Shown here one piece after another: positions 6,617-46,661 of a stretch of DNA of 64,000 nucleotides. Below the pieces are notes generated by a model. The model ran no database searches, was not told the DNA's origin, and worked only from the letters and a program-made list of their open reading frames with translations. A program made the translations under genes and the position numbers. Within the stretch, counting starts at the first letter, position 1. Each line of letters begins with the position of its first letter. This DNA comes from Escherichia phage TrudiRoth, in sequence record MZ501109; one strand, written 5' to 3'.

Positions 6617-7384
6617 TTATTCAGCAGCCGCAGCTTTTGCATCCAGTTTAGCACGCTTAGCAGCACCATCATAGTCCTTAGCAACCAGACCACGACGAGA
6701 CAGCATAGATTTAACACCGCGCTCAGACTTACCAGTTTTCTCAGCGATCTCAGCAACAGTCATGTTAGCCAGATCCAGACCTTCTAACAGATCTTCACGA
6801 GTCTTAGCACTTGATGTTTCCTGTACCGGCATAGCAGCGATACGACCTTCACGAAGCAGGCTCAGAGCTTTACCACGGATCTGCTTAATATTACGACCGA
6901 AGTGAGCAGCGATAGCTTCAATAGTAGCACCAGCAACAACCTGATTAACGAAATCAGTTTCTTCGTCAGGAGTGAAGGAACGAACAGCAGCAGCTTTTTC
7001 AGTTGGCTTAACAGAAGCAGTCATTTCCAGACTCAGGATCTTACCCTGTACCTGCTTAGCACCGAACTGACCACCAGCTACAGCAGCAGCGATTTCAGCG
7101 TAAGTATACTGACCAGCATGAGCGTTCAGGAAATCAACCAGTTCAGCTTCCTGCTCAGGAGTCCACGGGGATTTCTGTACTTCGTTAGCTTTCTGTACTT
7201 CGAAACCTTCTTTACGCAGCTTAGAGCCAACAGAGCGAGCGGTAACGTCTTTACCAGTCTCGGTAGCCAGTTCAGCAGCGATAGCAGCTACTTGTTCTTG
7301 AGAGATTACAGCAACACCCAGAGCAGTGGCTTTTGCTTTCAGAGACTCGGTTACACCTTCTACGTTCCAGTTCAGTTTAGACAT
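6617..7384 (-). CDS. abundant Ala-rich DNA-binding protein (255 aa), possibly the T5 D5-type DNA-binding protein
   Basis: Strong host-like high-expression codon usage (cgt/ctg/ggt/gct), repeated HTH-like segments, own terminator; size consistent with ~29 kDa. Confidence 0.45.
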   Translation of the reverse strand: MSKLNWNVEGVTESLKAKATALGVAVISQEQVAAIAAELATETGKDVTARSVGSKLRKEGFEVQKANEVQKSPWTPEQEAELVDFLNAHAGQYTYAEIAAAVAGGQFGAKQVQGKILSLEMTASVKPTEKAAAVRSFTPDEETDFVNQVVAGATIEAIAAHFGRNIKQIRGKALSLLREGRIAAMPVQETSSAKTREDLLEGLDLANMTVAEIAEKTGKSERGVKSMLSRRGLVAKDYDGAAKRAKLDAKAAAAE

Positions 7385-8159
7385 TATTATTTTTCTCCAA
7401 TAGTTCTTTAATCGACAGGATTTCTATCCCATTCGTTTCGGCTTTCTTATAAGATGAGGAAGAACGTTTTGATTCATCCTCACAGATTAGGTATTTGACG
7501 TCTTTGGTAACGGACTTCTTAACCGTATATCCTAGACTTTCTAAATAGTTTGTTGCATCCGTTCGATTTGCAAAATCTTGCAAAGATCCGGTAATACAGA
7601 CCGTGATTTCATTTGGTTGGGCAACTAAATCATCTGTAATGATGATATCAGCTTTAGTACCTCGAATACCAGTTGAGAATTTCCACGGTAATTCAATAAC
7701 ATCCTTGCCTTGTGGGGAATTTAGCCAGGTTTTGTAATTTTCTCCAGCCTTGCCGTCAGCCTTCACATCGTAGAAGCTAGTGCAATTTTGGGACAGTTTC
7801 TTTGCTGCAACCTCTCCAATAAGAGGAATTCCTAAAGAACCTAGAACTGAACCAAAGTCAATGTCTCCGCGAACCTTAGTATTTAACTCGCTAATCAACT
7901 TAGTGGCAACCTTGCTACCCACAGCTCCGACCAAATCTTCTTCGGTCAGGTAAAACAGTTCTGAGATCTTAGTCAGTTCCAGCTTCTCAATAGTTTTCGG
8001 GCCAAAGCCCTTTAACTTCATTTTTGTGCAGAAGTTCTCGATTAACTTACTTGATTGCGCTGGACAGTTGGACTTATTCCTACAGAATAATTGCCCGTTG
8101 ACAAGATCTAGCTTAGAACCACAAGAGGGACATTGTGTTGGAATTTCGATTTTCATCAA
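7377..8159 (-). CDS. NAD-dependent DNA ligase, C-terminal portion (Zn finger, HhH, BRCT)
   Basis: Begins with CPSCGSKL...C...C zinc finger, followed by HhH-like and BRCT-like segments. Confidence 0.8.
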   Translation of the reverse strand: MMKIEIPTQCPSCGSKLDLVNGQLFCRNKSNCPAQSSKLIENFCTKMKLKGFGPKTIEKLELTKISELFYLTEEDLVGAVGSKVATKLISELNTKVRGDIDFGSVLGSLGIPLIGEVAAKKLSQNCTSFYDVKADGKAGENYKTWLNSPQGKDVIELPWKFSTGIRGTKADIIITDDLVAQPNEITVCITGSLQDFANRTDATNYLESLGYTVKKSVTKDVKYLICEDESKRSSSSYKKAETNGIEILSIKELLEKNNNV

Positions 8160-8327
8160 ATTTCTTCCTTATCAATTTATATAAATATTATAGCAAGTAT
8201 TTAAGCATTTAGCAACTACAATTTTAACTAACTTTGCTTACCATCGCCATAACTTTCTATCCCTCAACTGAATGATAATAGTATATACCTAAGCGGCGAA
8301 AATGTCAATAGCTACTTTATAATTTTA

Positions 8328-8522
8328 CTATGGAGAACGGGCAAATTTACTATACGCACATTCATATCCTAGGGGTGTTAACATAATGTACACATTTCCT
8401 AGCTGCTTTTCCTTTGCTAGGCCAAGCTCTATAAGAGAAGTATAGTCACCAAGCATATCCCATACTTTAGTGGGACCATTCCAAAATAATTTCTCTAGTG
8501 CCTCGAGCATACTGCTATTCAT
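8328..8522 (-). CDS. hypothetical 64-aa ORF inside the spacer between the two ligase ORFs
   Basis: ORF track only; no recognisable motif. Confidence 0.3.
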   Translation of the reverse strand: MNSSMLEALEKLFWNGPTKVWDMLGDYTSLIELGLAKEKQLGNVYIMLTPLGYECAYSKFARSP

Positions 8523-9486
8523 AAACTCGCTCCACGATACAAGGTATTACACCACCAGCACGAATCACTCGAATCTGGCAACCGATCTCTAAATCGAGAG
8601 CGTTAATATAATCAACGTTATTAAGAGTTGCTTTAACAATTGTGGCATCATCAATAATCACCGGCTCGAAATAACCAACTGGAGTTACTTTACCAGAAGC
8701 CCCTACTTGCCATTCAACTTTAACAAGTGTGGTAATTTCGCCTTCTTCATCCTCTTTAATAGCAAATGCACCACGAGGAAATTTATTAGTCCAACCTTCA
8801 CGGAAGAATTTATTGTTGTCGTTAATGCGAACAACTTTACCATCTGTCGGAATCCATTTAAAGAAGGAACGAACATTAATAACTGTCAAGAAGTTCTCAT
8901 TCTCTAGCCAAAGCATATCTTTTAAATAGGCTTCTGTAATACCGACTGTTTCCGCTGAACACTGGATACCATATGCAACGAAGATTAAACCACCTTCACC
9001 AATACGTTGGATGAAATCATCGCTGTCTTTCAGGTTAATAGCACCTGAAGCGTAGTTACGCTTGTTCTCTACTTCTTTAGTAATGAGAACTTCACCAGTG
9101 ATTTGAGTTGGTACTTTTTGGGAAATAGTTTTGGGGATGTTCAGCATTTTAACATTATGCGTTACATCATTCCCTAGAATACCGTTACCACGAGTTAATG
9201 CTTGAACAAATTCACCATTAATATATAATAGAGAAATCGCACAACCATCTAACTTATCAGTTTCAACCTGACCTAATGGATTGAATGGAGCTTTATCACC
9301 ACGACCGTAATAGACTTTCTGCAAAGAATACATACGATACAAATGAGGAATATCACCTTTCGGTCCGATTTCTTCCTCTAGAGGGAATCTTTTAATCAGA
9401 CGATCATATTCTTCATCGGAAATAAGACTCATTCCCTGGTAGTACGCTTCTTGACAACGTTTGATAAAGTCTTTTACATTATTCAT
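8515..9486 (-). CDS. NAD-dependent DNA ligase, N-terminal portion (adenylation domain + OB fold)
   Basis: Ligase KxDG motif ETDKLDGCAIS; OB-fold end ...VIRAGGVIPCIVERV. Confidence 0.85.
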   Translation of the reverse strand: MNNVKDFIKRCQEAYYQGMSLISDEEYDRLIKRFPLEEEIGPKGDIPHLYRMYSLQKVYYGRGDKAPFNPLGQVETDKLDGCAISLLYINGEFVQALTRGNGILGNDVTHNVKMLNIPKTISQKVPTQITGEVLITKEVENKRNYASGAINLKDSDDFIQRIGEGGLIFVAYGIQCSAETVGITEAYLKDMLWLENENFLTVINVRSFFKWIPTDGKVVRINDNNKFFREGWTNKFPRGAFAIKEDEEGEITTLVKVEWQVGASGKVTPVGYFEPVIIDDATIVKATLNNVDYINALDLEIGCQIRVIRAGGVIPCIVERVYE

Positions 9487-10349: not shown

Positions 10350-10363
10350 TTACATATCCCAAA

Positions 10364-10389
10364 TACACAAAAAGCCCCATATAGGGGCT
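10364..10389 (-). terminator. Rho-independent terminator
   Basis: Hairpin agcccc-atata-ggggct followed by tttttgtgt on minus strand. Confidence 0.6.
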
Positions 10390-10399
10390 AATTGGTTTC

Positions 10400-10696: not shown

Positions 10697-10732
10697 AACT
10701 GTATTCCTTGTGTTGGTGGATTTATCTAAGAA

Positions 10733-11143: not shown

Positions 11144-11201
11144 ATTTTTCGATTTCCTTAATTAAGAATTAAACAGAATAGTTCTTTCAAACTATGAGAA
11201 T

Positions 11202-11230
11202 ATTATATCAAGAATTACAGGATTAAGCAA
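11202..11230 (-). promoter_or_regulatory. early-type sigma70 promoter (TTGCTT-17-TATAAT)
   Basis: Reverse complement reads cagTTGCTTaatcctgtaattcttgaTATAATattctc. Confidence 0.6.
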
Positions 11231-11250
11231 CTGAAATTTTTCAGTAACTG

Positions 11251-11514
11251 CTACACATCTAGTTCAACGATCTCCCAATCGTCGGCCAGAGCTTCGTCTA
11301 GGGTTAGGGAGGTGGTTTTCCATGTTGCGTCTTTTATATCGAACTTGGTATACCCATCTACATCAGGCCACCAAGTAAATTCGATAATATCATTATTATC
11401 AACATCTACCTTTATAATGGTAGAGTAGCAGCTACGAACATCCCAGTTAACCCAACTATCTCGCTGGAGATATTTTACGTCTCCAGCTTTTAACAGATCA
11501 GTTAGTTTACTCAC
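11251..11514 (-). CDS. hypothetical protein (87 aa)
   Basis: ORF track. Confidence 0.5.
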   Translation of the reverse strand: MSKLTDLLKAGDVKYLQRDSWVNWDVRSCYSTIIKVDVDNNDIIEFTWWPDVDGYTKFDIKDATWKTTSLTLDEALADDWEIVELDV

Positions 11515-12211
11515 GGCGTTTTCCTTTCTCTTTATCGAGTTTCAAGGCAGCTTTAACAGCTTCATTAACCAACGTGATAACTTCTTCACGACTCCACTTA
11601 AATCCTAGAGCTTTAACATCAACTCCCAGCTTTTCCAGATGTTTAACAGAAGCTAATTCGTAGTGCATATAGTGAACGTTCTGTTGTTTACCTTCTGATA
11701 ACAACCAAACACGGTAGCAGCCAACTGGGTTAGTCATTGCTTTCTTGATTTCACCAATACACTGATAGCCAGGAACCCAAACAAGTTCACCAACTTCAAA
11801 TTCTTCTGCCATTGCATCATCAGGAATCAGCGGTGGATTCAATGGATCAACAATATCGTTTAAACGAAGCAAAGCACCATAACGTTCCAGAACAGATTTA
11901 ATCATCGCTACAGAACGATAATTACGATCTGCGATTTCTTCAAAAGAATCACCAGAAAGATACTGTTCAATTACGTTTGCAAGCTCAACACCCTCAATCA
12001 GTGTTCCGCGCTTCTTCTTTTTCATTTCCGCAACTTGAACCTGACGATCTCTCCATTCTTCGATCATTCGTTCCATAGTTGGGTTAGAAGAAACACCGAG
12101 CATTTCACATGCTGCTTTCTTAGTACCACCATTCTCCAGATGTTCAATAACCTTTTTAAAGGTTTCATCAGGGATTTCATGGATAAGTTTCTTTCTACGA
12201 GAACCAGCCAT
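11507..12211 (-). CDS. putative HTH DNA-binding protein (234 aa)
   Basis: HTH-like segment TKKAACEMLGVSSNPTMERMIEEW; canonical promoter upstream. Confidence 0.5.
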   Translation of the reverse strand: MAGSRRKKLIHEIPDETFKKVIEHLENGGTKKAACEMLGVSSNPTMERMIEEWRDRQVQVAEMKKKKRGTLIEGVELANVIEQYLSGDSFEEIADRNYRSVAMIKSVLERYGALLRLNDIVDPLNPPLIPDDAMAEEFEVGELVWVPGYQCIGEIKKAMTNPVGCYRVWLLSEGKQQNVHYMHYELASVKHLEKLGVDVKALGFKWSREEVITLVNEAVKAALKLDKEKGKRRE

Positions 12212-12242
12212 ATTTAAACTCCTCTCTCAAATTTATGAATCT

Positions 12243-12271
12243 ATTATACAGAAAAATTTTCCTAAAAGCAA
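12243..12271 (-). promoter_or_regulatory. early-type sigma70 promoter (TTGCTT-17-TATAAT)
   Basis: Reverse complement reads ttatTTGCTTttaggaaaatttttctgTATAATagattcataaatttgagagagga. Confidence 0.6.
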
Positions 12272-12280
12272 ATAAATTTT

Positions 12281-12514
12281 TTATGATTCTTTGAGCAAAG
12301 AAGCAAGTTCAGCATAGACTTTATCTAACTCAAAGCCAATGCGAAGAGACACACGAGTCTTCCGTTGTTTAAGTAACCACTCGGATATGTTAGGGATGCC
12401 AGCTAATCTATGCGGTACCACCCTACATAGCTTTTCCGCAGTATCGTAAACAGAAGTTTTACGTTCTTTTACTGGGAACTTCCTTGTTTCCCACTTTTTA
12501 TTCTTCGCTGTCAT
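12281..12514 (-). CDS. hypothetical protein (about 77 aa; start adjusted to internal ATG)
   Basis: Track ORF 12281..12565 overlaps upstream gene by 68 nt; internal Met with G-rich RBS preferred. Confidence 0.4.
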   Translation of the reverse strand: MTAKNKKWETRKFPVKERKTSVYDTAEKLCRVVPHRLAGIPNISEWLLKQRKTRVSLRIGFELDKVYAELASLLKES

Positions 12515-15410
12515 TTCTAGCCCCCAATTCAGCAAGAGCTTCCTCATGCATCTGACGTTCTTCATCTGTCATAAACTTAACTGGAATCGGCATACATTCG
12601 ATCTTACAGTAAGTTCTGTACCAGTCCACAATCTTTTCCGTATCCAGATCTTTACCGATACCCATCATGCCAAGATACATACGAGCATATTTTGGGTTAG
12701 CGCTCTGACCTGTCTTAAGGAAGAAATCCTTCTTCTTATTCTTAAGAGCTTCGATAAACGGTTTGATTGTTACGTTTGAACACTTTTTAATATCTTCCCA
12801 GAACATGTCGTGCATCTTATGGAAGAATGCAGCTCTATCGTTTGGTTTATCCTTAATATACTGTTCAACGTGTTCCACTATTACATCTTTAATAGAATCC
12901 AGATGATAATAGCGAACCAGAAGTAACTTGGCTTCATAGGCATCTGCATGACGTGGTGCGCAATATTCAGGAGTTGAGTGCAAAATAGCTTTGATTCGCT
13001 CTTCTATATACTCGTTGCCTGCACCTTCGATAGTTCCCCAGCTTTCGCTGAAAATATCGATAGTTGCACCCTGATCAAGCAGATAATAACGCAAAGTACT
13101 AGTATAGTTTCTAGATTCCAGCTCACGACGACGTGCGTACAGTTGTTGGGCTAACTCAATCCAACCTTCGTCAATATTATATTGCTCGGAACCCGCAGAA
13201 AATCCACTCGTAGATTTATCAATAAAATAATAAATGTTCTGAGCACCACGGTCGCGCCTGATTGCTTGGAAACGCATGTTTGGCGCTTGGTTTGAGGTTC
13301 TAGTGATTACGAATACGTTATCAAAATAGTTAAAGTCAACACCACTCGTTACAGATGGACTACATAATAAACAATCAATCTGTTGATCAATTAGCTCATT
13401 AGTTGTATAATCCAGAATACGTCGGATATCTACATCAGACGTAGAGTTTGAGTGAATTTCTTTAACTAACGCACCAGTATTACGACGTAATGCCATTCCC
13501 TTCTCATTCAGTTCATCAGGGCCACAATCAGATACTAGGATTGATTTCTCCCCCATCTCTAAAGATGTTTGAAGTGCAACCCAAATACTGGATTCATCAG
13601 GGAATTCATAAGCATGAGCTTTTGCCAGCATTTTACGGTGATGATTATAGAACGCAACCGGTTTATCAAAATCAATCAAAGAACCATAGGCTTCAATCGT
13701 TTCTGCACTGATATCCCCATCAGATAAGATCACCGTTTTTGCAGTAATAAGAATATCACGAAGAACCTGAATACATTCACGACGGTTTTTAACAACCGGA
13801 GCGAATAACAGATCATTCATTACTGCGTCACATTCATCAATAAAGATCGTATCAATCTGACCCACAAAGCTCTTGAACTTATGTATAGAGTGAATAGTTG
13901 AAGACATACGATCAATAGCACCACGTTTGAAGTTCAGCATATCAACTGACTTATCATACTGGCCAGCACCGAATTTCTTCGCGTTAGAAGATACAAGTGC
14001 CCTAGTATTTGTGATTGCAATAAAGTTTCCTGGAAGAACACCTGCATCTAGCCACTTAGTTACTGCGGTAGTTTTACCCGTACCAAGACTTGCCTTAACA
14101 AATGTTAAATGTCCTTTTGGTGGTACAATATTAATTTTCAGGTATGGAACTTCTGGTGGAGAATCTGTGTCTAGACGTTTTAATGGTACACCTTTTAAGT
14201 TTGGTGGAATCTCACGTTTGGAGTTATTTACAAAGGCTTTGAGAGCCTGCTTACGACCGTTATTAAAGTAATCTTGAATATTACGACTATTATCCTTAGT
14301 TGCAATATATTCAGATAAGGCTGGTTTAATCTCACGTTCCAACCACGTAAAATCAACACCATCTTCTAACGCTCTGTGATAAAGTTTTGGGATAATACGC
14401 AGGTACACTCCATCCTCAGCTTCTTCTAGTTCGCTGATGGTTTCTTCCACTTTATCAGATGCAGCCTTCTTACCTTTAATTTGGTCAAGTAAGGAGTAGA
14501 ATTCTTCTTTGAACTCGCCTCTAGTTGTCTCAAAGTCAACTAGGTTATTAGGTAGATTCACCTTCGAACCCTTAACGTACACAAGACGTGGTTTATTCTC
14601 CGCTTTAAACGGATCGACTATACCATCATCAAATAAGGGATCTGCGAAATAGTGAAGCTGAACAGAAGAATAATAAGCTAAGTCAGCAATATCAAAGCCA
14701 TACTTTTGCTTACTACTGTCATTGATAGATGTAAATAAGAACTTTAACTGTCCCTGCGTTACCTTGACATTAGATTCTAGCATTAAGTGCATTCGGATAC
14801 CTAGTTTTAGGCCAGCCGAAGACGATGCATGAGCAATAAACCCTGCATCAAGAGGGAACATATCCTCACTAATACTATTCAACATCTTAATAATATGACG
14901 TGCCATGCCAACAAGATTAAACTTGTCATAGCCACCAGTATCTACAATACCATCCACGTCCATAGCAATAATATGACTAGGATTGGATACGTTAAAGTTT
15001 CCTCTGGTACGACGCACATTATCTTTTGGAGCTAGACATTTACCACGAATAGCTACAATATGCGGGTCTTTGGTAAGACGACGCATGATAGGTAACATTT
15101 CAGCAAGGTTTTGCGGGTCAAGTTCTTCAAGTACGTCAAATTTGAAGGGCATGGAAGCTGGTTTACCTTCTGGATGCTCTTTAGAGAATCGCTTTGCAAA
15201 GGTGTAATCTTCCACTTTGATCTCTTTCCAGATGCCAGTGGCTTTATCTCTGGAAAATCCTGCGTGACCTTGTAGGATTGAGAACACAACAATACTCCTA
15301 TGTTGGTTATTCGAATATCTTTCTTTAGGACTATTCAAAAGAATAGAACAACTATTACTACCATTTACACAAACATTAATCATCATCAAGCAGTATGAAT
15401 AAGTTATCAT
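12498..15410 (-). CDS. large SF2 helicase-domain protein (970 aa), putative replication initiation / origin-binding helicase
   Basis: Walker A KASLGTGKTT and DExD-like IFIDECD in central region. Confidence 0.65.
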   Translation of the reverse strand: MITYSYCLMMINVCVNGSNSCSILLNSPKERYSNNQHRSIVVFSILQGHAGFSRDKATGIWKEIKVEDYTFAKRFSKEHPEGKPASMPFKFDVLEELDPQNLAEMLPIMRRLTKDPHIVAIRGKCLAPKDNVRRTRGNFNVSNPSHIIAMDVDGIVDTGGYDKFNLVGMARHIIKMLNSISEDMFPLDAGFIAHASSSAGLKLGIRMHLMLESNVKVTQGQLKFLFTSINDSSKQKYGFDIADLAYYSSVQLHYFADPLFDDGIVDPFKAENKPRLVYVKGSKVNLPNNLVDFETTRGEFKEEFYSLLDQIKGKKAASDKVEETISELEEAEDGVYLRIIPKLYHRALEDGVDFTWLEREIKPALSEYIATKDNSRNIQDYFNNGRKQALKAFVNNSKREIPPNLKGVPLKRLDTDSPPEVPYLKINIVPPKGHLTFVKASLGTGKTTAVTKWLDAGVLPGNFIAITNTRALVSSNAKKFGAGQYDKSVDMLNFKRGAIDRMSSTIHSIHKFKSFVGQIDTIFIDECDAVMNDLLFAPVVKNRRECIQVLRDILITAKTVILSDGDISAETIEAYGSLIDFDKPVAFYNHHRKMLAKAHAYEFPDESSIWVALQTSLEMGEKSILVSDCGPDELNEKGMALRRNTGALVKEIHSNSTSDVDIRRILDYTTNELIDQQIDCLLCSPSVTSGVDFNYFDNVFVITRTSNQAPNMRFQAIRRDRGAQNIYYFIDKSTSGFSAGSEQYNIDEGWIELAQQLYARRRELESRNYTSTLRYYLLDQGATIDIFSESWGTIEGAGNEYIEERIKAILHSTPEYCAPRHADAYEAKLLLVRYYHLDSIKDVIVEHVEQYIKDKPNDRAAFFHKMHDMFWEDIKKCSNVTIKPFIEALKNKKKDFFLKTGQSANPKYARMYLGMMGIGKDLDTEKIVDWYRTYCKIECMPIPVKFMTDEERQMHEEALAELGARNDSEE

Positions 15411-15903: not shown

Positions 15904-16299
15904 TCAATCATCATTTAGGCCTGGGACATAGATTCCAATGCGATTTAATTGACCTTTAGCTTCTTCGAGAATATCTTCGGTGTACTCCCAAATATCATCT
16001 TCTACTTGCAAAAGATAAGGGGATTCACCAGTTTCGGGGTCACGTGTAATGGCTAAGCCACGTGGATGGAATATAGAGAAGTTGAGGGCAACAATCAAGC
16101 CCATACTGGACAATTCATTCCAGTCAGCTTCCCAACCATCATCTTCATCTTCGTCCACAAAGACACCTACACTAGGGTCTGTTACAGAAGTAAACGGAAA
16201 TGTTACACTAACCTTGTCAACCCCCAACCAACGTGCAAGGAGCCCTTCAGCACGCTCTACCAAACTAGGATCTATCTGACGCCAAAATACTTGTTCCAT
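15904..16299 (-). CDS. hypothetical protein (131 aa), paralog of the adjacent gene
   Basis: Shared segment W.ELS.MGL..ALN...F.P........TGE.P...V.....W.Y. Confidence 0.6.
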   Translation of the reverse strand: MEQVFWRQIDPSLVERAEGLLARWLGVDKVSVTFPFTSVTDPSVGVFVDEDEDDGWEADWNELSSMGLIVALNFSIFHPRGLAITRDPETGESPYLLQVEDDIWEYTEDILEEAKGQLNRIGIYVPGLNDD

Positions 16300-16308: not shown

Positions 16309-16737
16309 TTAAGCAGTTAAACCTGGGATCATATACCCGAAACGACGAAGTTTCTGAATCCCCTCATTTACTTCCTCGGGCGAATATGACCAGCCCTCAC
16401 TTTCATTTACCTGGAAAGCAGGAGCTTCACCAGTGCGATAATTTACAATAAGACGGTGATTTGCAGGCATAAACAGCTTATGGTTCAAGGCAAAAACCAG
16501 ACCCATTTCATCGAGTTCTTTCCAGTCTACAATCTCTTCTACTCCCTCCCCTAAATCCACGCTAACTCCAATACACGGAGCTTCCTCTAGTGGGCCTTTA
16601 AAAGACAGGAAGATATCGTTATTCTCACACCAAATCTTAAGCAGATTGATGGTTTCATTGTACATACCATTAGGGAGAGAACGCCAGAAGTTGAGGAGCA
16701 TAGGATTTACCTCTTTCATGAAAATATTATTGAACAT
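16309..16737 (-). CDS. hypothetical protein (142 aa), paralog of the adjacent gene
   Basis: Alignable by eye over ~70 residues with the 131-aa neighbour. Confidence 0.6.
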   Translation of the reverse strand: MFNNIFMKEVNPMLLNFWRSLPNGMYNETINLLKIWCENNDIFLSFKGPLEEAPCIGVSVDLGEGVEEIVDWKELDEMGLVFALNHKLFMPANHRLIVNYRTGEAPAFQVNESEGWSYSPEEVNEGIQKLRRFGYMIPGLTA

Positions 16738-16739: not shown

Positions 16740-17255
16740 TTATACCTTAAGTTTCTGAAGAGCCTTACACATTTCAAGATCTGGACTAAATTCCAGCATA
16801 TAGCTTATAGCATTTAAATCTTGAAGGTTTATTCCAGTCCTGCCATTTACAATAACAGTAGGAAATTGGTACATCATAGCACCAGCATCATCTAGGACGC
16901 ACCAATGCTTGAGCTTATGTTTTTCTACGAAACGTAAGACAGAATTACCTCGAGATAAACCACCTCCAGTAAAATCTGTTGTACCAAGAAAACGATCGAT
17001 CAAACCGAGTCCGGTCATAATCTGAACGTTCTCCATTTCATTTCGTACAGAAAACCATGAAGAGACCCCAACAATCATTATTGGGGAGGGTTTAAGAAAG
17101 TTCTGAAAAGCCTGGAGTAATGGCTTATAAACCCAATCACTGCCAAAGAACAGCTTTTCACTGTCTGGAGCATAATGGTGAGAGATGCTCGAATTGAGCA
17201 CCCCATCAATATCCAGGAAAATCACAGGAGTATTACTTATTTCCACCAGTAGCAT
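16740..17255 (-). CDS. HAD-superfamily phosphatase (nucleotidase-like)
   Basis: HAD motif I FLDIDGVLN near N-terminus and motif IV VLDDAG; start probably the internal Met (MLLVEI). Confidence 0.6.
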   Translation of the reverse strand: MLLVEISNTPVIFLDIDGVLNSSISHHYAPDSEKLFFGSDWVYKPLLQAFQNFLKPSPIMIVGVSSWFSVRNEMENVQIMTGLGLIDRFLGTTDFTGGGLSRGNSVLRFVEKHKLKHWCVLDDAGAMMYQFPTVIVNGRTGINLQDLNAISYMLEFSPDLEMCKALQKLKV

Positions 17256-17418
17256 CCCACGTCCAGACTTTAACTTCATCAGTAAAAGGAACTGGAACCT
17301 TCAATTCACCTTTACCCCACATAACAGATAGGAACAGAGAATAAATGGTAATCATACCGATTAGGTTGACAAACCATACTAGACCTTTCCAGATACCCTT
17401 AAAAATCTTCTTCACCAT
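17233..17418 (-). CDS. small membrane protein (about 61 aa)
   Basis: Hydrophobic helix WFVNLIGMITIYSLFLSVMW; strong RBS aaggaggg before internal Met. Confidence 0.4.
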   Translation of the reverse strand: MVKKIFKGIWKGLVWFVNLIGMITIYSLFLSVMWGKGELKVPVPFTDEVKVWTWDATGGNK

Positions 17419-17581
17419 ATTCTCCCTCCTTAATAAGGAACTCTTTCCATTCTGCTGTATCCTCATAGATAACGCAGAAATCATCACTCTTCCATGAGAA
17501 GTCATCGGTAGCAAATTCGAAACGGTAGCACCAACTACCGTCCGGCCATACTAAAAGATCACACATGCTCTTGCGGTGCAT
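17399..17581 (-). CDS. hypothetical protein (60 aa)
   Basis: ORF track; RBS ggaagg upstream. Confidence 0.4.
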   Translation of the reverse strand: MHRKSMCDLLVWPDGSWCYRFEFATDDFSWKSDDFCVIYEDTAEWKEFLIKEGEYGEEDF

Positions 17582-18410
17582 AAATAGTTCCTTCCATAAA
17601 GGCTTCTACTTGACCAATGAAATGCTTGTTACCAAAAACTTCGGCAGCTCCAGCCCGCCATACAGTAACACCACGTTTCTCATACTCAAGCTGTTCATCA
17701 TAACGAACTTGAGGGTTAACAACCATCATCTTAGTTCCACGACATACAGCAGGAAATAGCTCCCAGTTGAAGTCGATTACTTGGTTGCTACAACCTACTA
17801 CAATAACCATATCATTGCTAGTAAGTGTATCAAACAGGTTAATCTGACCCATATACCACGGAGCCGTCTCACCAAAGAATGTTACGTTTGGTTTTACCCA
17901 TTCGTAATCCTCAGGGGCAATCGCAGTATACCCAACATCTTCGATGATTTGGTTGCGACCCTGACGATAGATCACCTCTTTCAAGTACCCGTGAGCGTGA
18001 ATGATTTCATCACGAGGGATACCAGCACGTTCCAGAAGGTCATCAACGTTAGTAGTGAAGTTCTTCACGCTATCCGCACCATAACGCTGGAACCATTCTG
18101 CAATTCGCAGATGGGCAATGTTAGGCTCAACAGTCTGTAATTCCTGACGACGCATGTTGTAGAACTCATGAGTCTTGAGATACAGATCGTTACCATCTTT
18201 ATCAATGCCAGGGAAACGAGCACTGAAGTAGTTAGGATCATCTTCACCACAGAAGCGACGGAAGCCAGCTTCAAAGTTAGGCAAGCTACATACTTCCTCT
18301 AGATCGTACTCATCCCACAAGGATTTCCCACTAGCAGTATCAGTACGGAAAGCACGAACACCACTATCTACACTCAAACCTGCACCACTAACAACGATTA
18401 GTCTACGCAT
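17559..18410 (-). CDS. Sir2-family (sirtuin-like) NAD-binding protein lacking a Zn-ribbon
   Basis: Sirtuin motifs GAGLSVDSG...FR, TTNVDDLLERAG...HAHG, VTFFGE, VVGCS; no CxxC pairs. Confidence 0.65.
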   Translation of the reverse strand: MRRLIVVSGAGLSVDSGVRAFRTDTASGKSLWDEYDLEEVCSLPNFEAGFRRFCGEDDPNYFSARFPGIDKDGNDLYLKTHEFYNMRRQELQTVEPNIAHLRIAEWFQRYGADSVKNFTTNVDDLLERAGIPRDEIIHAHGYLKEVIYRQGRNQIIEDVGYTAIAPEDYEWVKPNVTFFGETAPWYMGQINLFDTLTSNDMVIVVGCSNQVIDFNWELFPAVCRGTKMMVVNPQVRYDEQLEYEKRGVTVWRAGAAEVFGNKHFIGQVEAFMEGTIYAPQEHV

Positions 18411-36595: not shown

Positions 36596-37540
36596 ATGTT
36601 TACTAAAAACACTAAAGAACTGACTTCCGATCAAAAAGTAATTCGTACTATTAAACGTTGGGGCGTTGGTGCTGTAGTTGGTCTTGGCGCTCTTATTCTG
36701 GCTCTCAATTCCTATACAGTTGTTCAGGACGGTACGGTTAAAACTCAGACTTTCCTGGGTAAAGTTAGTCCTAATCCTGTATTGCCGGGGTTCCATATTG
36801 TCAACCCATTCGCCTCTTTTGATACTTTTAGTACGAAAGATATTTCTATGAAACTGGATAAACTTCAGGTTCCTAGCCAGGATAAGTTTAAGTCCACTGT
36901 TGACATTACCGTTATGTTGCAGTTTGATGGTGCTAAAGCTCCTATGAACCGTGTTAACGCAGGTACTCAGGATCAAGCTCTGAACAAGTACGTTGAAGAG
37001 AAGATGCTATCTACGATTCGTGAGTTTGGTAAGTCTGTACCAAAAGCACAAGATCTGTTCGACGCTAAGATTCAGGCTCAACTGCAAACTGCTATTCAGC
37101 AAGAAGTAGAAGAGTACGCGCGTCCTTATGGTTACACGGTTAAGCAAGTATTCCTTCAGGATATTACTCTGCCACCTGTAATCATGGAACAGGTACAAAA
37201 CACAAAAGTTCGTGAAGAACAAGTTAACGCCGCTAAAGCTGAATTGGCTCGTGTTGAACAAGAAGCACAGCAGAAAGTTAAGCAAGCTGAAGCTGATCGT
37301 TCTGCTCGTGAAAACATGGCAGTAGCTAACGAACGTGACGCAGATGCTAAACTGTACGCAGCTAAGAAAGAAGCTGAAGCTAACGCCGCGCTGCAACGTA
37401 CCATTACTCCTGAAATGATTCGTTGGAAGCAGCTGGAAGTTGAAATGCTTCGTGCTGAAAAATACCAAGGTGGTGTACCGCAGACTGTTGTTGGTACTGG
37501 CTACGATGGTCAAATGATCATGGATATGCGTAACAAGTAA
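36596..37540 (+). CDS. SPFH/band-7 (prohibitin/HflC-like) membrane protein
   Basis: N-terminal TM helix, SPFH-like core, long C-terminal coiled coil. Confidence 0.65.
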   Translation: MFTKNTKELTSDQKVIRTIKRWGVGAVVGLGALILALNSYTVVQDGTVKTQTFLGKVSPNPVLPGFHIVNPFASFDTFSTKDISMKLDKLQVPSQDKFKSTVDITVMLQFDGAKAPMNRVNAGTQDQALNKYVEEKMLSTIREFGKSVPKAQDLFDAKIQAQLQTAIQQEVEEYARPYGYTVKQVFLQDITLPPVIMEQVQNTKVREEQVNAAKAELARVEQEAQQKVKQAEADRSARENMAVANERDADAKLYAAKKEAEANAALQRTITPEMIRWKQLEVEMLRAEKYQGGVPQTVVGTGYDGQMIMDMRNK

Positions 37541-37563
37541 TAGTTACACGTAATCTTCGAACC

Positions 37564-37596
37564 AAGCCCGCGTTTCCTCTGAGAGCGCGGGCTTTT
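37564..37596 (+). terminator. Rho-independent terminator
   Basis: 8-bp stem agcccgcg/cgcgggct, then tttctg. Confidence 0.6.
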
Positions 37597-37743
37597 CTGT
37601 ATTTAAGGCAAAAGAAAAGCCCATAAGTTATTCAACTAAGGTCTTTAGTATTTAATTCTTTAGAATCATATACTATTATTTCAGCAACAACGTGCTGCCC
37701 TTAAGTGCCCTGCGATTTTCCTCTAAAAAGTTAAAAAATTCGA

Positions 37744-37772
37744 TTGCTTGAATGCTAAATTCTCTGTATAAT
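37744..37772 (+). promoter_or_regulatory. early-type sigma70 promoter (TTGCTT-17-TATAAT)
   Basis: attcgaTTGCTTgaatgctaaattctctgTATAATatatttataaatttgagagagg. Confidence 0.6.
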
Positions 37773-37802
37773 ATATTTATAAATTTGAGAGAGGAATCAA
37801 AT

Positions 37803-38858
37803 ATGATTAAGACTGGTCTAGTAATTGGTAAGTTCGCACCATTAACACGTGGTCATATTAACCTAATAAACACAGCAGCAACTATGTGTGAACGAGTTAT
37901 AGTTGTAGTTAGTCATGATAATCGCTGGCTGGATAAACAAAACACACGTGATCAGGAAGTCTTACAGTTAAAGAACCGACTTCGTTGGTTAGAACAAACT
38001 TACGCGGATATTGAGCACATTTCGGTAGAGTACATTATTGAAGATGATATTCCTGAATATCCGAATGGTTGGCCGGAATATGCTAGAATACTTAATGAAA
38101 ATTATGGACATTTGCCTGAGATCACCATTTTCTCTAGCGAACTAGACTATGATGCAGAATATAAGAAATATCTGCCGAAGTTTGGTCATTATATTGTAGA
38201 TTCTGATCGGACTCGTGTTCCAATCTCAGCTACAATGATTCGTAATGATCTTATGAAGTATTGGGAGTTTCTTCCTAGCGTAGTTCGTAAAGATTACGTG
38301 CGTAAGGTTGTAATCATTGGGACTGAAAGCTCGGGAAAGACTACTTTAACAAAATACCTTGCGAAGCTATACAACACTTCGTGGGTAGAAGAATATGGTC
38401 GAACGTATTGTGAAGTTGATCTAGTTGGTAACGAAAATCTGCTTACCAGCGAAGATTATAGTAAAATTGCGTTCAGACACAAAGAGCTAGAGTTTGAAGC
38501 AGAACGTACTGCAAATAAGATCATGTTTGTGGATACAAATGCTTTTATTACTGAGTTCTACCACAGACTTTATGAACATAGTAAGAATCCTGTGGTTACA
38601 GCAATTGCAAAAGAAGAACATTATGATTTAGTAATTGTTCTAGCGCCTACTGTCAAGTGGGTAGATGATGGTTTACGTATTAACTCCGATCGTTCAATTA
38701 CTTCTGAACTGTTCGAGCAGATGAAGAAAGAATTTCCAAATCAGTTCCCTGAAGGGCGTACTGTTTACATCGACTCTCCGGACTACAAAGTTCGTATGGA
38801 CGAAGCAGTAAACGCAGTAGACTGGCTGATTCATCACTTTAACGTTGGAGAGTTTTAA
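37803..38858 (+). CDS. NadR-like bifunctional NMN adenylyltransferase / ribosylnicotinamide kinase
   Basis: Nucleotidyltransferase motif GKFAPLTRGH at N-terminus; P-loop kinase IIGTESSGKTT in C-terminal half; start moved to ATG 37803. Confidence 0.7.
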   Translation: MIKTGLVIGKFAPLTRGHINLINTAATMCERVIVVVSHDNRWLDKQNTRDQEVLQLKNRLRWLEQTYADIEHISVEYIIEDDIPEYPNGWPEYARILNENYGHLPEITIFSSELDYDAEYKKYLPKFGHYIVDSDRTRVPISATMIRNDLMKYWEFLPSVVRKDYVRKVVIIGTESSGKTTLTKYLAKLYNTSWVEEYGRTYCEVDLVGNENLLTSEDYSKIAFRHKELEFEAERTANKIMFVDTNAFITEFYHRLYEHSKNPVVTAIAKEEHYDLVIVLAPTVKWVDDGLRINSDRSITSELFEQMKKEFPNQFPEGRTVYIDSPDYKVRMDEAVNAVDWLIHHFNVGEF

Positions 38859-38859
38859 T

Positions 38860-39537
38860 ATGACTAACTATCTCGTAAATGACTTTAAAAACTGGAAACC
38901 TCTGGAATATCTGTGGCTGTTCATAGCGGTTGTCTTCATTAGTTTAGCAAACTATAATGGTACAGCTCTAGATTGGGCTACTGCAATAACCAATGTGGTT
39001 TGTGTTATTCTGGTTGCAAAAGGACGTGTTTCCAACTATATTTGGGGCTTAGTGGGTGTTCTTACATATGGTATTACAGCTTTAAACGCAGATCTTTATG
39101 GTAACGCTGCACTAAACCTGCTATACTACGTTCCTATGCAGTTTTATGGAATGTACTTATGGCATAAAAATAAGCCAAGTAATCTGCCGGATGTTCCAAC
39201 TAAGGTTCTGACTAAAGCCCAAGCTCTGCTGACTCTAGGGATTCTAGCAGTAGCCACGTTAGGGTATGGTAGTTTCTTAGCTACTACGGCTGATCCATTT
39301 CCAATGTTGGATGCATTTACTGCGGTAGGTAGTGTGATCGCTATGTGGCTTATGGTTAAGCAGTATGCCGAGCAGTGGCTGATCTGGATTGCTATTAACA
39401 TTGGTACTGTGTACATTTGGCTTGTAACTGCTCAATCTACAGGTGCATCTTATGCAATCCTAGCAATGTGGCTAGTATTCTTAGGTAACTCTATTATGGG
39501 AGCCTATAAAGGATACTTTGTACGCGTTAACAAATAA
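38860..39537 (+). CDS. PnuC-like nicotinamide riboside/NMN transporter
   Basis: Polytopic membrane protein immediately downstream of the NadR-like gene; multiple Trp/Asn-rich TM helices. Confidence 0.55.
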   Translation: MTNYLVNDFKNWKPLEYLWLFIAVVFISLANYNGTALDWATAITNVVCVILVAKGRVSNYIWGLVGVLTYGITALNADLYGNAALNLLYYVPMQFYGMYLWHKNKPSNLPDVPTKVLTKAQALLTLGILAVATLGYGSFLATTADPFPMLDAFTAVGSVIAMWLMVKQYAEQWLIWIAINIGTVYIWLVTAQSTGASYAILAMWLVFLGNSIMGAYKGYFVRVNK

Positions 39538-39544
39538 AGTAGTT

Positions 39545-39572
39545 ATAGCCCTCGCTTAGAGGGCTATTATAC
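39545..39572 (+). terminator. Rho-independent terminator
   Basis: 9-bp stem atagccctc/gagggctat, loop gctta. Confidence 0.55.
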
Positions 39573-39584
39573 AGAAATTTTCAC

Positions 39585-39613
39585 TTGCTTAATATAGAAA
39601 ATTTCTGTATAAT
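39585..39613 (+). promoter_or_regulatory. early-type sigma70 promoter (TTGCTT-17-TATAAT)
   Basis: ttcacTTGCTTaatatagaaaatttctgTATAATatatttataaatttgagagagg. Confidence 0.6.
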
Positions 39614-39643
39614 ATATTTATAAATTTGAGAGAGGAATCAAAT

Positions 39644-39940
39644 ATGAAACGCATTGTACTTGCATTGACTCTAGTATCTACTTCTGTATTTGCTGCTCCA
39701 CAACAGGAACTTTGTCAAGTTCAAGTTTGTAATAAGCTAGAACGATTTACTCTAGACATTTGGTCACATATTAAAGATAATATGGGTGAACAGTGTTTTG
39801 ATATTGTTCTGCCAAAAGAACAAGCTGTTCCTGGTGCTGTTCTCAGTTCAGAATCACGTTGGTGGCAGGGTTCTTCTATCAATCCAACTAAGAAGTCAGT
39901 GACACGTATCAAACAAGTATATCAGTGCAATGTTCAGTAA
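39644..39940 (+). CDS. secreted small protein (98 aa)
   Basis: Signal peptide MKRIVLALTLVSTSVFA; start placed after RBS. Confidence 0.55.
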   Translation: MKRIVLALTLVSTSVFAAPQQELCQVQVCNKLERFTLDIWSHIKDNMGEQCFDIVLPKEQAVPGAVLSSESRWWQGSSINPTKKSVTRIKQVYQCNVQ

Positions 39941-39948
39941 AATTTCAC

Positions 39949-39977
39949 TTGCTTAATGCCGAAATTTTCTGTATAAT
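39949..39977 (+). promoter_or_regulatory. early-type sigma70 promoter driving a tRNA operon
   Basis: ttcacTTGCTTaatgccgaaattttctgTATAATatattcataatttcggaag; tRNA starts ~15 nt after -10. Confidence 0.6.
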
Positions 39978-39991
39978 ATATTCATAATTTC

Positions 39992-40085
39992 GGAAGATTA
40001 ACCCTAAAGGTAAGGGAGCTGTTTGCTAAACAGCTAGTAGCTGTGGAAACACGGTGTGCCAGTTCGAGTCTGGCATCTTCCTCCA
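39992..40085 (+). tRNA. tRNA-Ser (anticodon GCU), long variable arm
   Basis: Acceptor ggaagat/atcttcc, anticodon loop uuGCUaa, variable-arm hairpin with GAAA loop, T-arm gccagTTCGAGTctggc, CCA. Confidence 0.7.
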
Positions 40086-46585: not shown

Positions 46586-46661
46586 GGGCGAATAGTGTCA
46601 GCGGGAGCACACCAGACTTGCAAGTCTGGTAGGGAGGGTTCGAGTCTCTCTTTGTCCACCA
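46586..46661 (+). tRNA. non-canonical tRNA (GCA-containing anticodon arm; loop of 8 or 6 nt)
   Basis: Acceptor gggcgaa/tttgtcc, D-arm gtgt-cagcggga-gcac, anticodon arm is a perfect 18-nt palindrome ccagacttgcaagtctgg, T-arm gagggTTCGAGTctctc, CCA. Confidence 0.45.

What the first reader, a model, noticed from the sequence alone, without database searches (positions are those of the whole stretch)
37803..39537. Phage-encoded NAD+ salvage pair (NadR-like plus PnuC-like) alongside a Sir2-like protein and NAD-dependent ligase
A NadR-like enzyme (GKFAPLTRGH nucleotidyltransferase motif plus IIGTESSGKTT kinase P-loop) is followed, one codon apart, by a PnuC-like transporter, and a Zn-ribbon-less Sir2-family protein sits at 17559-18410. 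Together with the NAD-dependent ligase this makes an NAD-centred gene set in the early region, which would fit replenishing NAD+ against NAD+-depleting host immunity or supporting the ligase. The Sir2-like protein could equally be an ADP-ribosyltransferase or NADase.
Basis: partly seen in the sequence, partly recalled or inferred. Interest (0 to 1): 0.6.

Follow-up and report, generated by a model that had tools for sequence, protein, structure and literature searches.

The report
Known phage NAD+ salvage operon (NARP3)

Summary
37803-38858 (+) encodes a 351-aa NadR-like enzyme with no HTH domain (NMN adenylyltransferase plus ribosylnicotinamide kinase). 38860-39537 (+) encodes a 225-aa PnuC-family transporter. 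The two genes are 1 nt apart, not one codon.

The window is an Epseptimavirus (T5-like), very probably BASEL phage Bas30/TrudiRoth. The NadR-like protein is 351/351 identical to PDB 9X6F/9X6H, which is Bas30_86, and the PnuC keeps N45, Q94 and N180. Yan et al. (Sci Adv, Aug 2026) showed that this pair, named NARP3, imports nicotinamide riboside, converts it through NMN to NAD+, and rescues phages from Sir2-HerA and DSR1. Osterman et al. had predicted it in 2024, and more than 200 GenBank phage records annotate it.

My additions:
- The operon is a bounded early transcription unit: terminator, T5-type promoter, two coupled genes, hairpin.
- 54 of 59 viral NadR loci have a PnuC gene within about 2 kb.
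- The Zn-less Sir2-like protein and the split NAD-dependent ligase are core T5-like genes. T5 has both but lacks NARP3, so they do not form one module with it.
- The Sir2-like gene is tied to a SAK-type HAD phosphatase, a published but untested RNA-repair prediction.
- A conserved 98-aa secreted protein recurs beside NadR-PnuC in three phage lineages and is unexplained.

Verdict: already known; low interest.

The parts
37564..37594 (+). Intrinsic terminator closing the upstream SPFH/band-7 gene (36596-37540). It isolates the nadR-pnuC unit from upstream transcription.
   Evidence: 12-bp stem with 7 G-C pairs followed by TTCTGTATTT. Folding gives -20.7 kcal/mol, z -2.7.
37744..37772 (+). T5-type sigma-70 promoter (TTGCTT-N17-TATAAT with TG upstream of the -10), followed by a leader and ribosome-binding site (AAATTTGAGAGAGGA) up to the nadR start codon.
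   Evidence: The pattern occurs 16 times in the window against 0.12 expected. Sequence read. The 44 nt at 37763-37806 are identical to 39604-39647. The resemblance to characterised T5 early promoters rests on my own knowledge, so early expression is inferred.
37803..38858 (+). nadR-like gene, 351 aa. Bifunctional enzyme without an HTH: NMN adenylyltransferase (about residues 1-150) plus ribosylnicotinamide kinase (about 165-345). Equals Bas30_86 of NARP3.
   Evidence: Pfam and NCBIfam matches. 351/351 identical to PDB 9X6F/9X6H, which the paper assigns to Bas30_86. All residues mutated in the paper are present.
38860..39537 (+). pnuC-like gene, 225 aa, 25.0 kDa. Nicotinamide riboside transporter corresponding to Bas30_87 of NARP3. 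It starts 1 nt after the nadR stop codon.
   Evidence: PF04973 E 2.9e-43, TIGR01528 121 bits above its cut-off of 42, 4QTN E 1.4e-32. N45, Q94 and N180 are present. Junction read.
39545..39567 (+). GC-rich 9-bp hairpin directly after the pnuC stop codon. It looks like a terminator or a 3'-end stabiliser (weak U tract) and marks the end of the operon.
   Evidence: Folding gives -18 kcal/mol, z -5.3, with 0 of 200 shuffles as stable. Coordinates.
39585..39940 (+). Neighbouring unit, not shown to belong to NARP3. It has its own T5-type promoter (39585-39613) and an ORF at 39644-39940 encoding a 98-aa secreted protein with four invariant Cys. Its function is unknown.
   Evidence: Promoter. PHROG 6894, no Pfam match. 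Homologues of 56-69% identity sit next to NadR-PnuC in three phage lineages. No structural match.
17559..18410 (-). Separate NAD+-using gene: a Sir2-like protein (283 aa) related to CobB/class III sirtuins, with the catalytic residues kept and the zinc-binding cysteines lost.
   Evidence: PF02146 and 1S5P matches. GAGxS, FR, YxxR, TTNVD and H140 are invariant in 25 phage homologues, and none has the zinc-module cysteines. No PADLOC match.
16740..17279 (-). HAD phosphatase of the 'Swiss-army-knife' RNA-repair type, two small ORFs downstream of the Sir2-like gene. Together they form the conserved Sir2-HAD pair of T5-like phages.
   Evidence: PF18143 HAD_SAK_2, E 2.5e-18. It lies within 500 bp of Sir2 in all 28 viral loci that carry a homologue of this HAD (the 100-126 kb group with T5 and My1), and is not found in the other 31.
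7377..9486 (-). Separate NAD+-using genes: NAD-dependent DNA ligase LigA split into two ORFs, 8515-9486 (adenylation + OB) and 7377-8159 (HhH + BRCT).
   Evidence: Pfam. TIGR00575 positions 4-379 and 388-651. Synteny with phage ende, where they are annotated as ligase subunits A and B.

Best explanation
The two genes are the NARP3 NAD+ reconstitution pathway of an Epseptimavirus (T5-like phage), most likely phage Bas30/TrudiRoth itself.

A strong T5-type promoter drives a bicistronic message. PnuC inserts into the inner membrane and lets nicotinamide riboside (NR) from the surroundings into the cytoplasm. The HTH-less NadR-like enzyme phosphorylates NR to NMN with its C-terminal kinase domain, then adenylates NMN to NAD+ with its N-terminal nucleotidyltransferase domain, using two ATP. 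This refills the NAD+ pool when host defences such as Sir2-HerA or DSR1 hydrolyse NAD+, so the phage can complete replication.

Shown elsewhere, on the identical NadR protein and on Bas30_87: NR binding, the two enzymatic steps, crystal structures, restoration of NAD+ and NADH, rescue of T7, lambda and Klebsiella phages, and dependence on external NR (EC50 about 4-6 uM).

Inferred here: that the window's genes are those genes, that they are expressed early from their own promoter, and that they do this job during infection by the native phage.
For: Identity. 351/351 residues match PDB 9X6F/9X6H, which are the Bas30_86 structures. K10, F11, S37, E80, P84, G89, F110, S112, D115, V139, I141, K163, D164, R167, K168, E230 and D275 in NadR, and N45, Q94 and N180 in PnuC, sit at the published positions (paper sections read).

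Family matches.

Published function (PMC13464706). Co-expression raises plaquing 10^3- to 10^4-fold on Sir2-HerA strains. Neither gene alone rescues. NAD+ and NADH are restored. The system is NR-dependent.

Origin. The window's Sir2-like protein has exactly the sequence deposited for phage TrudiRoth. Accession MZ501109, which falls between TrudiGerster and VogelGryff, is missing from the searchable collection. No record matches the whole window.

Operon anatomy: terminator, promoter, 1-nt gene junction and hairpin.

Conservation of the pairing. 208 phage records carry the pair at megablast level. NadR and PnuC are linked in Aeromonas, Proteus, Enterococcus, Bacillus, Cronobacter and Xanthomonas phages. 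54 of 59 IMG/VR NadR loci have a PnuC within about 2 kb.
Against: - The published work used plasmid expression with T7, lambda and Klebsiella phages. The authors state that the role in the native phage was not tested.
- I could not retrieve the Bas30_87 sequence, so identity of the window's PnuC to it is inferred from length, mass and the three named residues.
- The pathway needs external NR, whose availability in the gut or sewage is unknown. The products of NADase defences (ADP-ribose and nicotinamide) are not its substrates.
- Many T5-like phages, T5 included, do without it. It is therefore accessory, and its benefit may depend on the host.
Confidence: 0.88

Rival explanations
1. Housekeeping rather than counter-defence. 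The operon mainly raises NAD+ supply for the phage's own NAD+-consuming enzymes (the split NAD-dependent ligase that seals nicks in T5-type DNA, and the Sir2-like enzyme) and for the general metabolic load of infection, whether or not a host defence is active.
For: The same genome encodes two NAD+ consumers. In the IMG/VR sample, Sir2-bearing contigs of at least 100 kb also carry NadR in 11 of 47 cases, against NadR in roughly 1.5% of phage records (773 of 50,697). This reading does not exclude the anti-defence role.
Against: - T5 and most T5-sized Sir2-bearing contigs have the ligase and Sir2 but no NadR-PnuC (2 of 31). The consumers therefore do not need the pathway.
- 24 of 35 large NadR-bearing contigs lack this Sir2.
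- The enrichment comes from only two lineages.
- The published phenotype is specific rescue from NADase defences.
Confidence: 0.2
2. One integrated NAD module: NadR-PnuC, the Sir2-like protein and the ligase are co-selected and functionally coupled. For example, NARP3 would exist to compensate for NAD+ burnt by the phage's own sirtuin.
For: All are in the early region of one genome. Sir2 and NadR co-occur in Epseptimavirus and in 9 of 14 myovirus contigs of about 137-153 kb.
Against: - The genes are 20-30 kb apart, on opposite strands and in separate transcription units.
- The Sir2-like gene's conserved partner is a SAK-type HAD phosphatase (within 500 bp in all 28 viral loci that carry a homologue of that HAD), not NadR.
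- No NadR or PnuC lies within 10 kb of Sir2 in any of 59 loci.
- T5 has Sir2, HAD and ligase without NARP3.
Confidence: 0.07
3. Different substrate or role: the transporter carries another vitamin-like compound (other Pnu-family members carry thiamine or riboflavin precursors), or the NadR-like protein acts as a regulator rather than an enzyme.
For: PF04973 covers Pnu transporters with other substrates. NCBIfam names the enzyme 'multifunctional transcriptional regulator'.
Against: - There is no HTH domain: the alignment starts at model position 65.
- The PnuC-specific equivalog TIGR01528 is passed at 121 bits against a cut-off of 42.
- Published data show NR binding (Kd about 0.66 uM) by Bas30_87 and NR-to-NMN-to-NAD+ conversion by the identical enzyme.
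Confidence: 0.02

Closest known systems
NARP3 (Bas30_86/Bas30_87 of Escherichia phage TrudiRoth; Yan et al., Sci Adv 2026, PMC13464706; PDB 9X6H, 9X6F)
   Same: - The NadR-like protein is identical (351/351).
- The gene order is the same, nadR-like then pnuC-like.
- The same NR-coordinating residues are present in PnuC.
- The phage genus is the same.
- This is the same system, very probably the same phage.
   Different: Nothing detectable in the two genes. The paper calls it a two-gene system found in 124 enterobacterial phage records. Here the pair is found in 208 records by DNA similarity, and NadR-PnuC linkage appears well beyond enterobacterial phages (Herelleviridae, Bacillus phages, jumbo phages, three giant-virus bins).
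Bacterial NadR (E. coli 8X7F, H. influenzae 1LW7, L. lactis 6GYE) with PnuC (N. mucosa 4QTN)
   Same: The NMNAT and RNK domains and motifs are the same (E 7.6e-55 to 1LW7, 7.5e-51 to 8X7F). The PnuC fold family is the same. The chemistry is the same: NR to NMN to NAD+.
   Different: - There is no N-terminal HTH repressor domain.
- The genes are fused into one operon, whereas in E. coli they are at separate loci (statement from the paper).
- They are expressed from a phage promoter.
NARP2 (NadV Nampt plus NatV NMNAT-Nudix, Vibrio phage KVP40) and NARP1 (Adps plus Namat); Osterman et al. 2024
   Same: The purpose is the same: phage-encoded rebuilding of NAD+ to overcome NAD+-depleting defences. 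Osterman et al. already proposed the NadR-PnuC operon of BASEL phages as a further pathway.
   Different: NARP1 recycles ADP-ribose plus nicotinamide, and NARP2 starts from nicotinamide plus PRPP. Both use the breakdown products of NAD+. NARP3 needs imported nicotinamide riboside.
CobB/class III sirtuins, and the phage sirtuin clade with the SAK-HAD neighbourhood (Iyer et al. 2022, PMC9503650, section 3.7.3, prototype phage SP15)
   Same: The Sir2-like protein keeps GAGxS, FR, YxxR, TxNxD, the catalytic His and the FGE loop. It sits beside a HAD_SAK_2 phosphatase, exactly the third neighbourhood type described there.
   Different: It lacks the four zinc-binding cysteines and scores far below the deacylase cut-offs (87.7 bits against 243). 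Its activity has never been measured, and the KptA-like RNA 2'-phosphate removal remains a prediction.

Membership tests
NARP3 (phage NadR-like + PnuC-like NAD+ reconstitution pathway) | Bifunctional NMNAT-RNK enzyme without an HTH domain | tested here: met
   Pfam CTP_transf_like plus AAA_28. The NadR model is matched from position 65 onward. 351/351 identical to Bas30_86 chains 9X6F/9X6H.
NARP3 (phage NadR-like + PnuC-like NAD+ reconstitution pathway) | Residues shown by mutagenesis to be needed (NadR K10, F11, S37, E80, P84, G89, F110, S112, D115, E230, D275; PnuC N45, Q94, N180) | tested here: met
   All are present at the published positions. Residue lists come from the paper.
NARP3 (phage NadR-like + PnuC-like NAD+ reconstitution pathway) | PnuC-type transporter gene immediately downstream in the same operon of a phage genome | tested here: met
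   1-nt intergenic gap with no promoter or terminator between the genes. The phage context is an Epseptimavirus.
NARP3 (phage NadR-like + PnuC-like NAD+ reconstitution pathway) | Restores NAD+ and rescues phage from NADase defences in an NR-dependent way | not testable with these tools
   Published for Bas30_86/87 expressed from plasmids. Not tested in the native phage.
Trifunctional bacterial NadR (E. coli type) | N-terminal helix-turn-helix repressor domain | tested here: not met
   Protein residue 3 aligns to position 65 of the 411-position model NF005988. The only in-frame upstream extension is 17 aa and overlaps the promoter and RBS.
Trifunctional bacterial NadR (E. coli type) | NMNAT (H/T)xGH and ISxTxxR motifs, and RNK Walker A | tested here: met
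   TRGH at 15-18, ISATMIR at 141-147 and GTESSGKT at 173-180. They are invariant in seven diverse phage NadR proteins.
PnuC nicotinamide riboside transporter (PF04973 / TIGR01528) | Profile score above the curated cut-off over the full domain | tested here: met
   PF04973 148 bits (cut-off 27.3). TIGR01528 121 bits (cut-off 42.45). Aligned to 4QTN residues 12-225.
Sirtuin protein deacylase (CobB / class III) | NAD+-binding Rossmann motifs and catalytic histidine | tested here: met
   G9-A10-G11-x-S13, F21-R22, T119-T120-N121-V122-D123 and H140-G141 are invariant in 25 homologues. Aligned to CobB 1S5P.
Sirtuin protein deacylase (CobB / class III) | Four-cysteine zinc-binding module | tested here: not met
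   There is no Cys between H140 and FFGE (Cys only at 41, 54, 207, 223). The cysteines are absent in all 25 aligned family members. The CobB cysteines align to Y and E/W.
Sirtuin protein deacylase (CobB / class III) | Score above NCBIfam deacylase cut-offs | tested here: not met
   The best is NF001753 at 87.7 bits against a cut-off of 243.
Defence-type SIR2 NADases (ThsA, DSR, SIR2-HerA) | Similarity to PADLOC SIR2 effector profiles | tested here: not met
   No PADLOC family at E <= 0.01.
Phage sirtuin + SAK-HAD predicted RNA-repair neighbourhood (Iyer et al. 2022, type 3) | Sirtuin gene linked to a Swiss-army-knife HAD phosphatase gene | tested here: met
   HAD_SAK_2 E 2.5e-18 at 16740-17279, 280 bp downstream of Sir2. 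The linkage is within 500 bp in all 28 viral loci that carry a homologue of this HAD, and is also present in T5.
Phage sirtuin + SAK-HAD predicted RNA-repair neighbourhood (Iyer et al. 2022, type 3) | NAD+-dependent removal of RNA 2'-phosphate | not testable with these tools
   A prediction only. No experimental paper was found.
NAD-dependent DNA ligase LigA | Adenylation, OB, HhH and BRCT domains | tested here: met
   Split over two ORFs that cover TIGR00575 positions 4-379 and 388-651.

The most novel reading that the evidence does not exclude
In the native phage, NARP3 may have a third helper. The conserved 98-aa secreted, disulfide-bonded protein encoded directly after pnuC (39644-39940) recurs next to NadR-PnuC in three unrelated phage lineages. 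It could act in the periplasm to improve nicotinamide riboside supply to PnuC, for example by binding NR or by acting on host enzymes that make or destroy it. The pathway may also feed the phage's own NAD+ users, namely the zinc-less sirtuin working with the SAK-HAD phosphatase on damaged RNA ends.
Probability: 0.1. Interest if true: 0.5.

Novelty: already known. Interest (0 to 1): 0.15.

Why it matters
NAD+ depletion is one of the commonest bacterial anti-phage strategies, and phage pathways that rebuild NAD+ decide which phages can infect such hosts. They are also candidate parts for engineered therapeutic phages. For this window the question is settled: the pair is NARP3, already demonstrated biochemically and structurally.

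What remains open:
- whether it matters in the native T5-like phage, which the authors did not test;
- how widespread the NadR-PnuC pairing really is (it reaches Gram-positive phages, jumbo phages and giant-virus bins);
- what the conserved secreted neighbour does;
- what the zinc-less sirtuin does.

Tried and rejected
- **Fetching phage TrudiRoth (Bas30) for a direct comparison of PnuC and the whole window.** Accession MZ501109 is not in the phage collection. The contig look-up returned only Seafire and faergetype. The paper's supplements are not held. Identity with Bas30 therefore rests on the PDB chain and on the exact-sequence name of the Sir2-like protein.
- **PADLOC scan.** It gave nothing meaningful for any of the four proteins, so the Sir2-like protein is not a defence-type NADase by sequence.
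- **The generic promoter scan.** It missed the real promoters because their -35 box is TTGCTT. A direct pattern search found them.
- **The 98-aa secreted protein.** The AlphaFold model was of moderate confidence (pLDDT 77), and Foldseek against the PDB gave no match below E = 1. Function remains unknown. Aeh1 ORF180c, two genes upstream of the 98-aa homologue there, is not a NadR, and the AhSzq-1 gene after pnuC is not a homologue.
- **The 'one NAD module' idea.** Rejected on distribution.
- **Not done.** I did not model the Sir2-like protein, because a CobB-like fold would not discriminate between deacylase, ADP-ribosyltransferase and NADase.
Full report
**Observation.** 37803-38858 (+) encodes 351 aa with GKFAPLTRGH at residues 9-18, ISATMIR at 141-147 and IIGTESSGKTT at 171-181. 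It matches Pfam CTP_transf_like and AAA_28 (E 8.5e-32). It also matches the NCBIfam NadR equivalog PRK08099 at 253 bits (cut-off 201), with alignment starting at model position 65, so the HTH repressor domain is absent. 38860-39537 (+) encodes 225 aa matching PF04973 (E 2.9e-43), TIGR01528 PnuC (121 bits, cut-off 42) and the solved Neisseria PnuC 4QTN (E 1.4e-32). The junction is TAA-T-ATG, one nucleotide rather than one codon. The Sir2-like ORF at 17559-18410 (-) and the NAD-dependent ligase are also real. The ligase is split into 8515-9486 and 7377-8159 (-), which cover LigA model positions 4-379 and 388-651.

**Where the window comes from.** The window holds 23 tRNA genes. It matches Epseptimavirus genomes (T5-like, Demerecviridae) at 97-100% identity: 100% to phage Shin27 over 37000-40000, and about 97.8% to several Salmonella phages over 1-25000. 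No single record covers all of it. The exact Sir2-like sequence is deposited as 'Sir2-like protein [Escherichia phage TrudiRoth]'. The accession that should be TrudiRoth, MZ501109, lies between TrudiGerster (MZ501108) and VogelGryff (MZ501110) and is absent from the searchable collection. The contig look-up also did not return it. I infer that the window is BASEL phage Bas30/TrudiRoth or a near-identical relative.

**It is already known.** The NadR-like protein is 351/351 identical to PDB chains 9X6F/9X6H. Yan et al. (Sci Adv, 12 Aug 2026, PMC13464706) report these as Bas30_86, alone and with NAD+. That paper names the Bas30_86/Bas30_87 operon NARP3. Its findings are as follows.
- Bas30_87 is a trimeric PnuC-type transporter that binds nicotinamide riboside (Kd about 0.66 uM) through N45, Q94 and N180.
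- Bas30_86 converts NR to NMN and NMN to NAD+ with ATP.
- Co-expression of both genes, but neither alone, restores NAD+ and NADH and raises plaquing of T7 and lambda 10^3- to 10^4-fold on Sir2-HerA strains. It also counters DSR1.
- Rescue depends on external NR, with an EC50 of about 4-6 uM.

All residues named there are at the same positions in the window's proteins. Osterman et al. (2024) had already proposed the NadR-PnuC operon of BASEL phages as a further NAD+ reconstitution pathway. More than 200 GenBank phage records annotate the two genes. The authors state that they could not test the pathway in the native phage.

**Anatomy in the native genome (new detail, partly inferred).** The upstream SPFH/band-7 gene ends at 37540 and is followed by a strong terminator at 37564-37594. 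A promoter of the form TTGCTT-N17-TATAAT lies at 37744-37772. This pattern occurs 16 times in the window against 0.12 expected. By my own knowledge it resembles the characterised strong T5 early promoters. The leader with its ribosome-binding site runs to the nadR ATG. The 44 nt at 37763-37806 are repeated exactly at 39604-39647, in front of the next gene. The two genes are 1 nt apart, which fits translational coupling. A 9-bp GC-rich hairpin at 39545-39567 (-18 kcal/mol, z -5.3) closes the unit. The G+C content of the operon (39.1%) equals that of the window (39.8%). The operon therefore looks like a self-contained, early, strongly expressed unit, which suits a counter-measure that must act before NAD+ collapses.

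**Distribution.** In wild-type T5, the same position between the SPFH lipoprotein gene and tRNA-Ser(GCU) holds T5.076-T5.079 instead: a Toprim-domain protein and three proteins of unknown function. The operon is therefore accessory cargo at a variable locus. Across phages, NadR-like proteins occur in 773 of 50,697 records. A PnuC gene is nearby in each of the following.
- An Aeromonas Demerecviridae phage, where the two genes overlap.
- Proteus Mydovirus and Cronobacter Seunavirus, within 1.3-2 kb.
- An Enterococcus Schiekvirus, with two PnuC genes flanking NadR.
- Bacillus phage pW2.
- A Xanthomonas jumbo phage.

In an IMG/VR sample, 54 of 59 NadR loci have a PnuC homologue within about 2.1 kb. 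Three of the five exceptions are cut by contig ends, and three loci come from giant-virus bins. The pairing is therefore much broader than the 124 enterobacterial records counted in the paper.

**The Sir2-like protein and the ligase are not part of the operon.** They lie 20-30 kb away on the other strand. T5 itself has the Sir2-family gene (T5p100), the downstream HAD (T5p103) and the ligase, but no NARP3. The Sir2-like protein is closest to E. coli CobB (E 1.6e-16). In 25 phage homologues it keeps GAGxS, F21-R22, the class III Y84-x-x-R87 motif, T-T-N-V-D and H140-G141 invariant. None of them has the zinc-binding cysteines. It scores far below the deacylase cut-offs and matches no defence-type SIR2 profile. 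Two small ORFs downstream lies a HAD_SAK_2 phosphatase (PF18143, E 2.5e-18). The Sir2-HAD distance is under 500 bp in all 28 viral loci that carry a homologue of this HAD (100-126 kb contigs, T5 and My1 among them). The HAD is not found near Sir2 in the other 31 loci. This is the third neighbourhood type for which Iyer et al. 2022 predicted a KptA-like removal of RNA 2'-phosphates (PMC9503650). I found no experimental test of that prediction.

**Co-occurrence of Sir2 and NadR.** On the same viral contig, the two genes co-occur in 11 of 47 large Sir2 contigs. That is 2 of 31 T5-sized contigs and 9 of 14 myovirus contigs of about 137-153 kb. Of 35 large NadR contigs, 24 lack this Sir2. There is some enrichment, but it comes from two lineages, and neither gene needs the other.

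**A neighbour worth noting.** Directly after the hairpin, with its own copy of the promoter and leader, lies a 98-aa ORF (39644-39940). It has a signal peptide and four invariant cysteines. It has no Pfam match and belongs to PHROG 6894, of unknown function. Homologues are 56-69% identical across Demerecviridae, Seunavirus, a jumbo Mimasvirus, the T4-like phage Aeh1 and phage 7-11. In Seunavirus and the jumbo phages the gene sits one or two genes upstream of NadR-PnuC. Of 22 IMG/VR loci with this gene, 9 have NadR and PnuC within 4 kb and 13 have neither within 6 kb. A model of moderate confidence (pLDDT 77) has no structural match. It may be a hitch-hiker or an accessory factor, and I cannot decide which.

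**Mechanism and rivals.** My best explanation (confidence 0.88) is that this is NARP3. PnuC admits external NR, the kinase domain makes NMN, and the adenylyltransferase domain makes NAD+. That refills the pool emptied by NADase defences. The chemistry and the heterologous rescue are shown in the literature for the identical enzyme. Early expression and benefit to the native phage are inferred. The housekeeping rival, feeding the phage ligase and sirtuin, is not excluded. It is weakened because most phages with those enzymes lack the operon. The 'single NAD module' idea is not supported by gene order or distribution. A different substrate or a regulatory role is contradicted by the missing HTH and by the published binding and HPLC data.

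**Verdict.** The finding coincides with a system predicted in 2024, published in full in August 2026 and widely annotated. Novelty: already known. Interest: 0.15. The residual value lies in the native-context test, the wider distribution of the NadR-PnuC pairing, the unexplained secreted neighbour and the uncharacterised zinc-less sirtuin.

Noticed in passing
window 39585-39940 (+); also L014:3501-3818, L016:4001-4306, L015:3001-3288, L017:2920-3240: A 98-aa secreted protein with four invariant Cys and the motif SRWYQGSSINPTKKSVTRV has its own promoter directly after pnuC. Homologues are 56-69% identical in very different phage families. They lie beside NadR-PnuC in Epseptimavirus, Seunavirus and jumbo Mimasvirus-like phages (9 of 22 viral loci) but not in Aeh1 or 7-11. 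No Pfam family and no structural match.
   Followed up: partly
window 37540-39990 compared with L006 (T5 NC_005859) 9171-12739: The slot between the SPFH lipoprotein gene and tRNA-Ser(GCU) is variable. T5 carries T5.076 (Toprim domain) and T5.077-079 (no Pfam match, opposite strand, own promoter and terminator) where this phage carries nadR-pnuC and the 98-aa gene.
   Followed up: partly
window 16740-18410 (-); loci L059-L079: Mosaicism inside the Sir2-HAD pair. Tequintavirus (T5-type) loci have a HAD about 90% identical to the window's, but a Sir2 only about 51% identical. The window's Sir2 is closer (59-64%) to those of other phage groups, which suggests the Sir2 allele alone was exchanged.
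   Followed up: partly
window 37763-37806 and 39604-39647; 16 sites listed: A 44-nt block (-10 box, leader, ribosome-binding site and ATGA) is repeated exactly in front of nadR and the 98-aa gene. The TTGCTT-N17-TATAAT promoter form occurs 16 times in the window (0.12 expected). The generic sigma-70 scan misses it.
   Followed up: partly
window 46586-46661 (+): ARAGORN reports a tRNA of undetermined identity with a four-base anticodon (tgca) inside the tRNA array, next to tRNA-Leu(tag).
   Followed up: no
window 15904-16299 and 16309-16737 (-): Two tandem paralogous genes, each with DUF7415 (E 3e-28 and 9e-37), lie directly downstream of the SAK-type HAD gene. They are conserved in T5 (T5p104, T5p105) and may belong to the same Sir2-HAD unit.
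   Followed up: no
L144, L145, L151 (IMG/VR GVMAG contigs): NadR-like genes with a PnuC-like gene 260-470 bp away occur in three bins labelled as giant-virus metagenome-assembled genomes. Iyer et al. 2022 reported no NAD+ salvage in eukaryotic viruses. These could be contamination or misbinning.
   Followed up: no
L012 (Enterococcus phage iF6) 1462-5229: In this Herelleviridae phage the NadR-like gene is flanked by two PnuC-like genes and preceded by a HAD-like phosphatase and a glutaredoxin-like gene. This is a larger version of the salvage cluster.
   Followed up: no
window 8160-8514: The gap between the two ligase ORFs is about 355 bp here, against about 200 bp in phage ende. What occupies it was not examined.
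   Followed up: no
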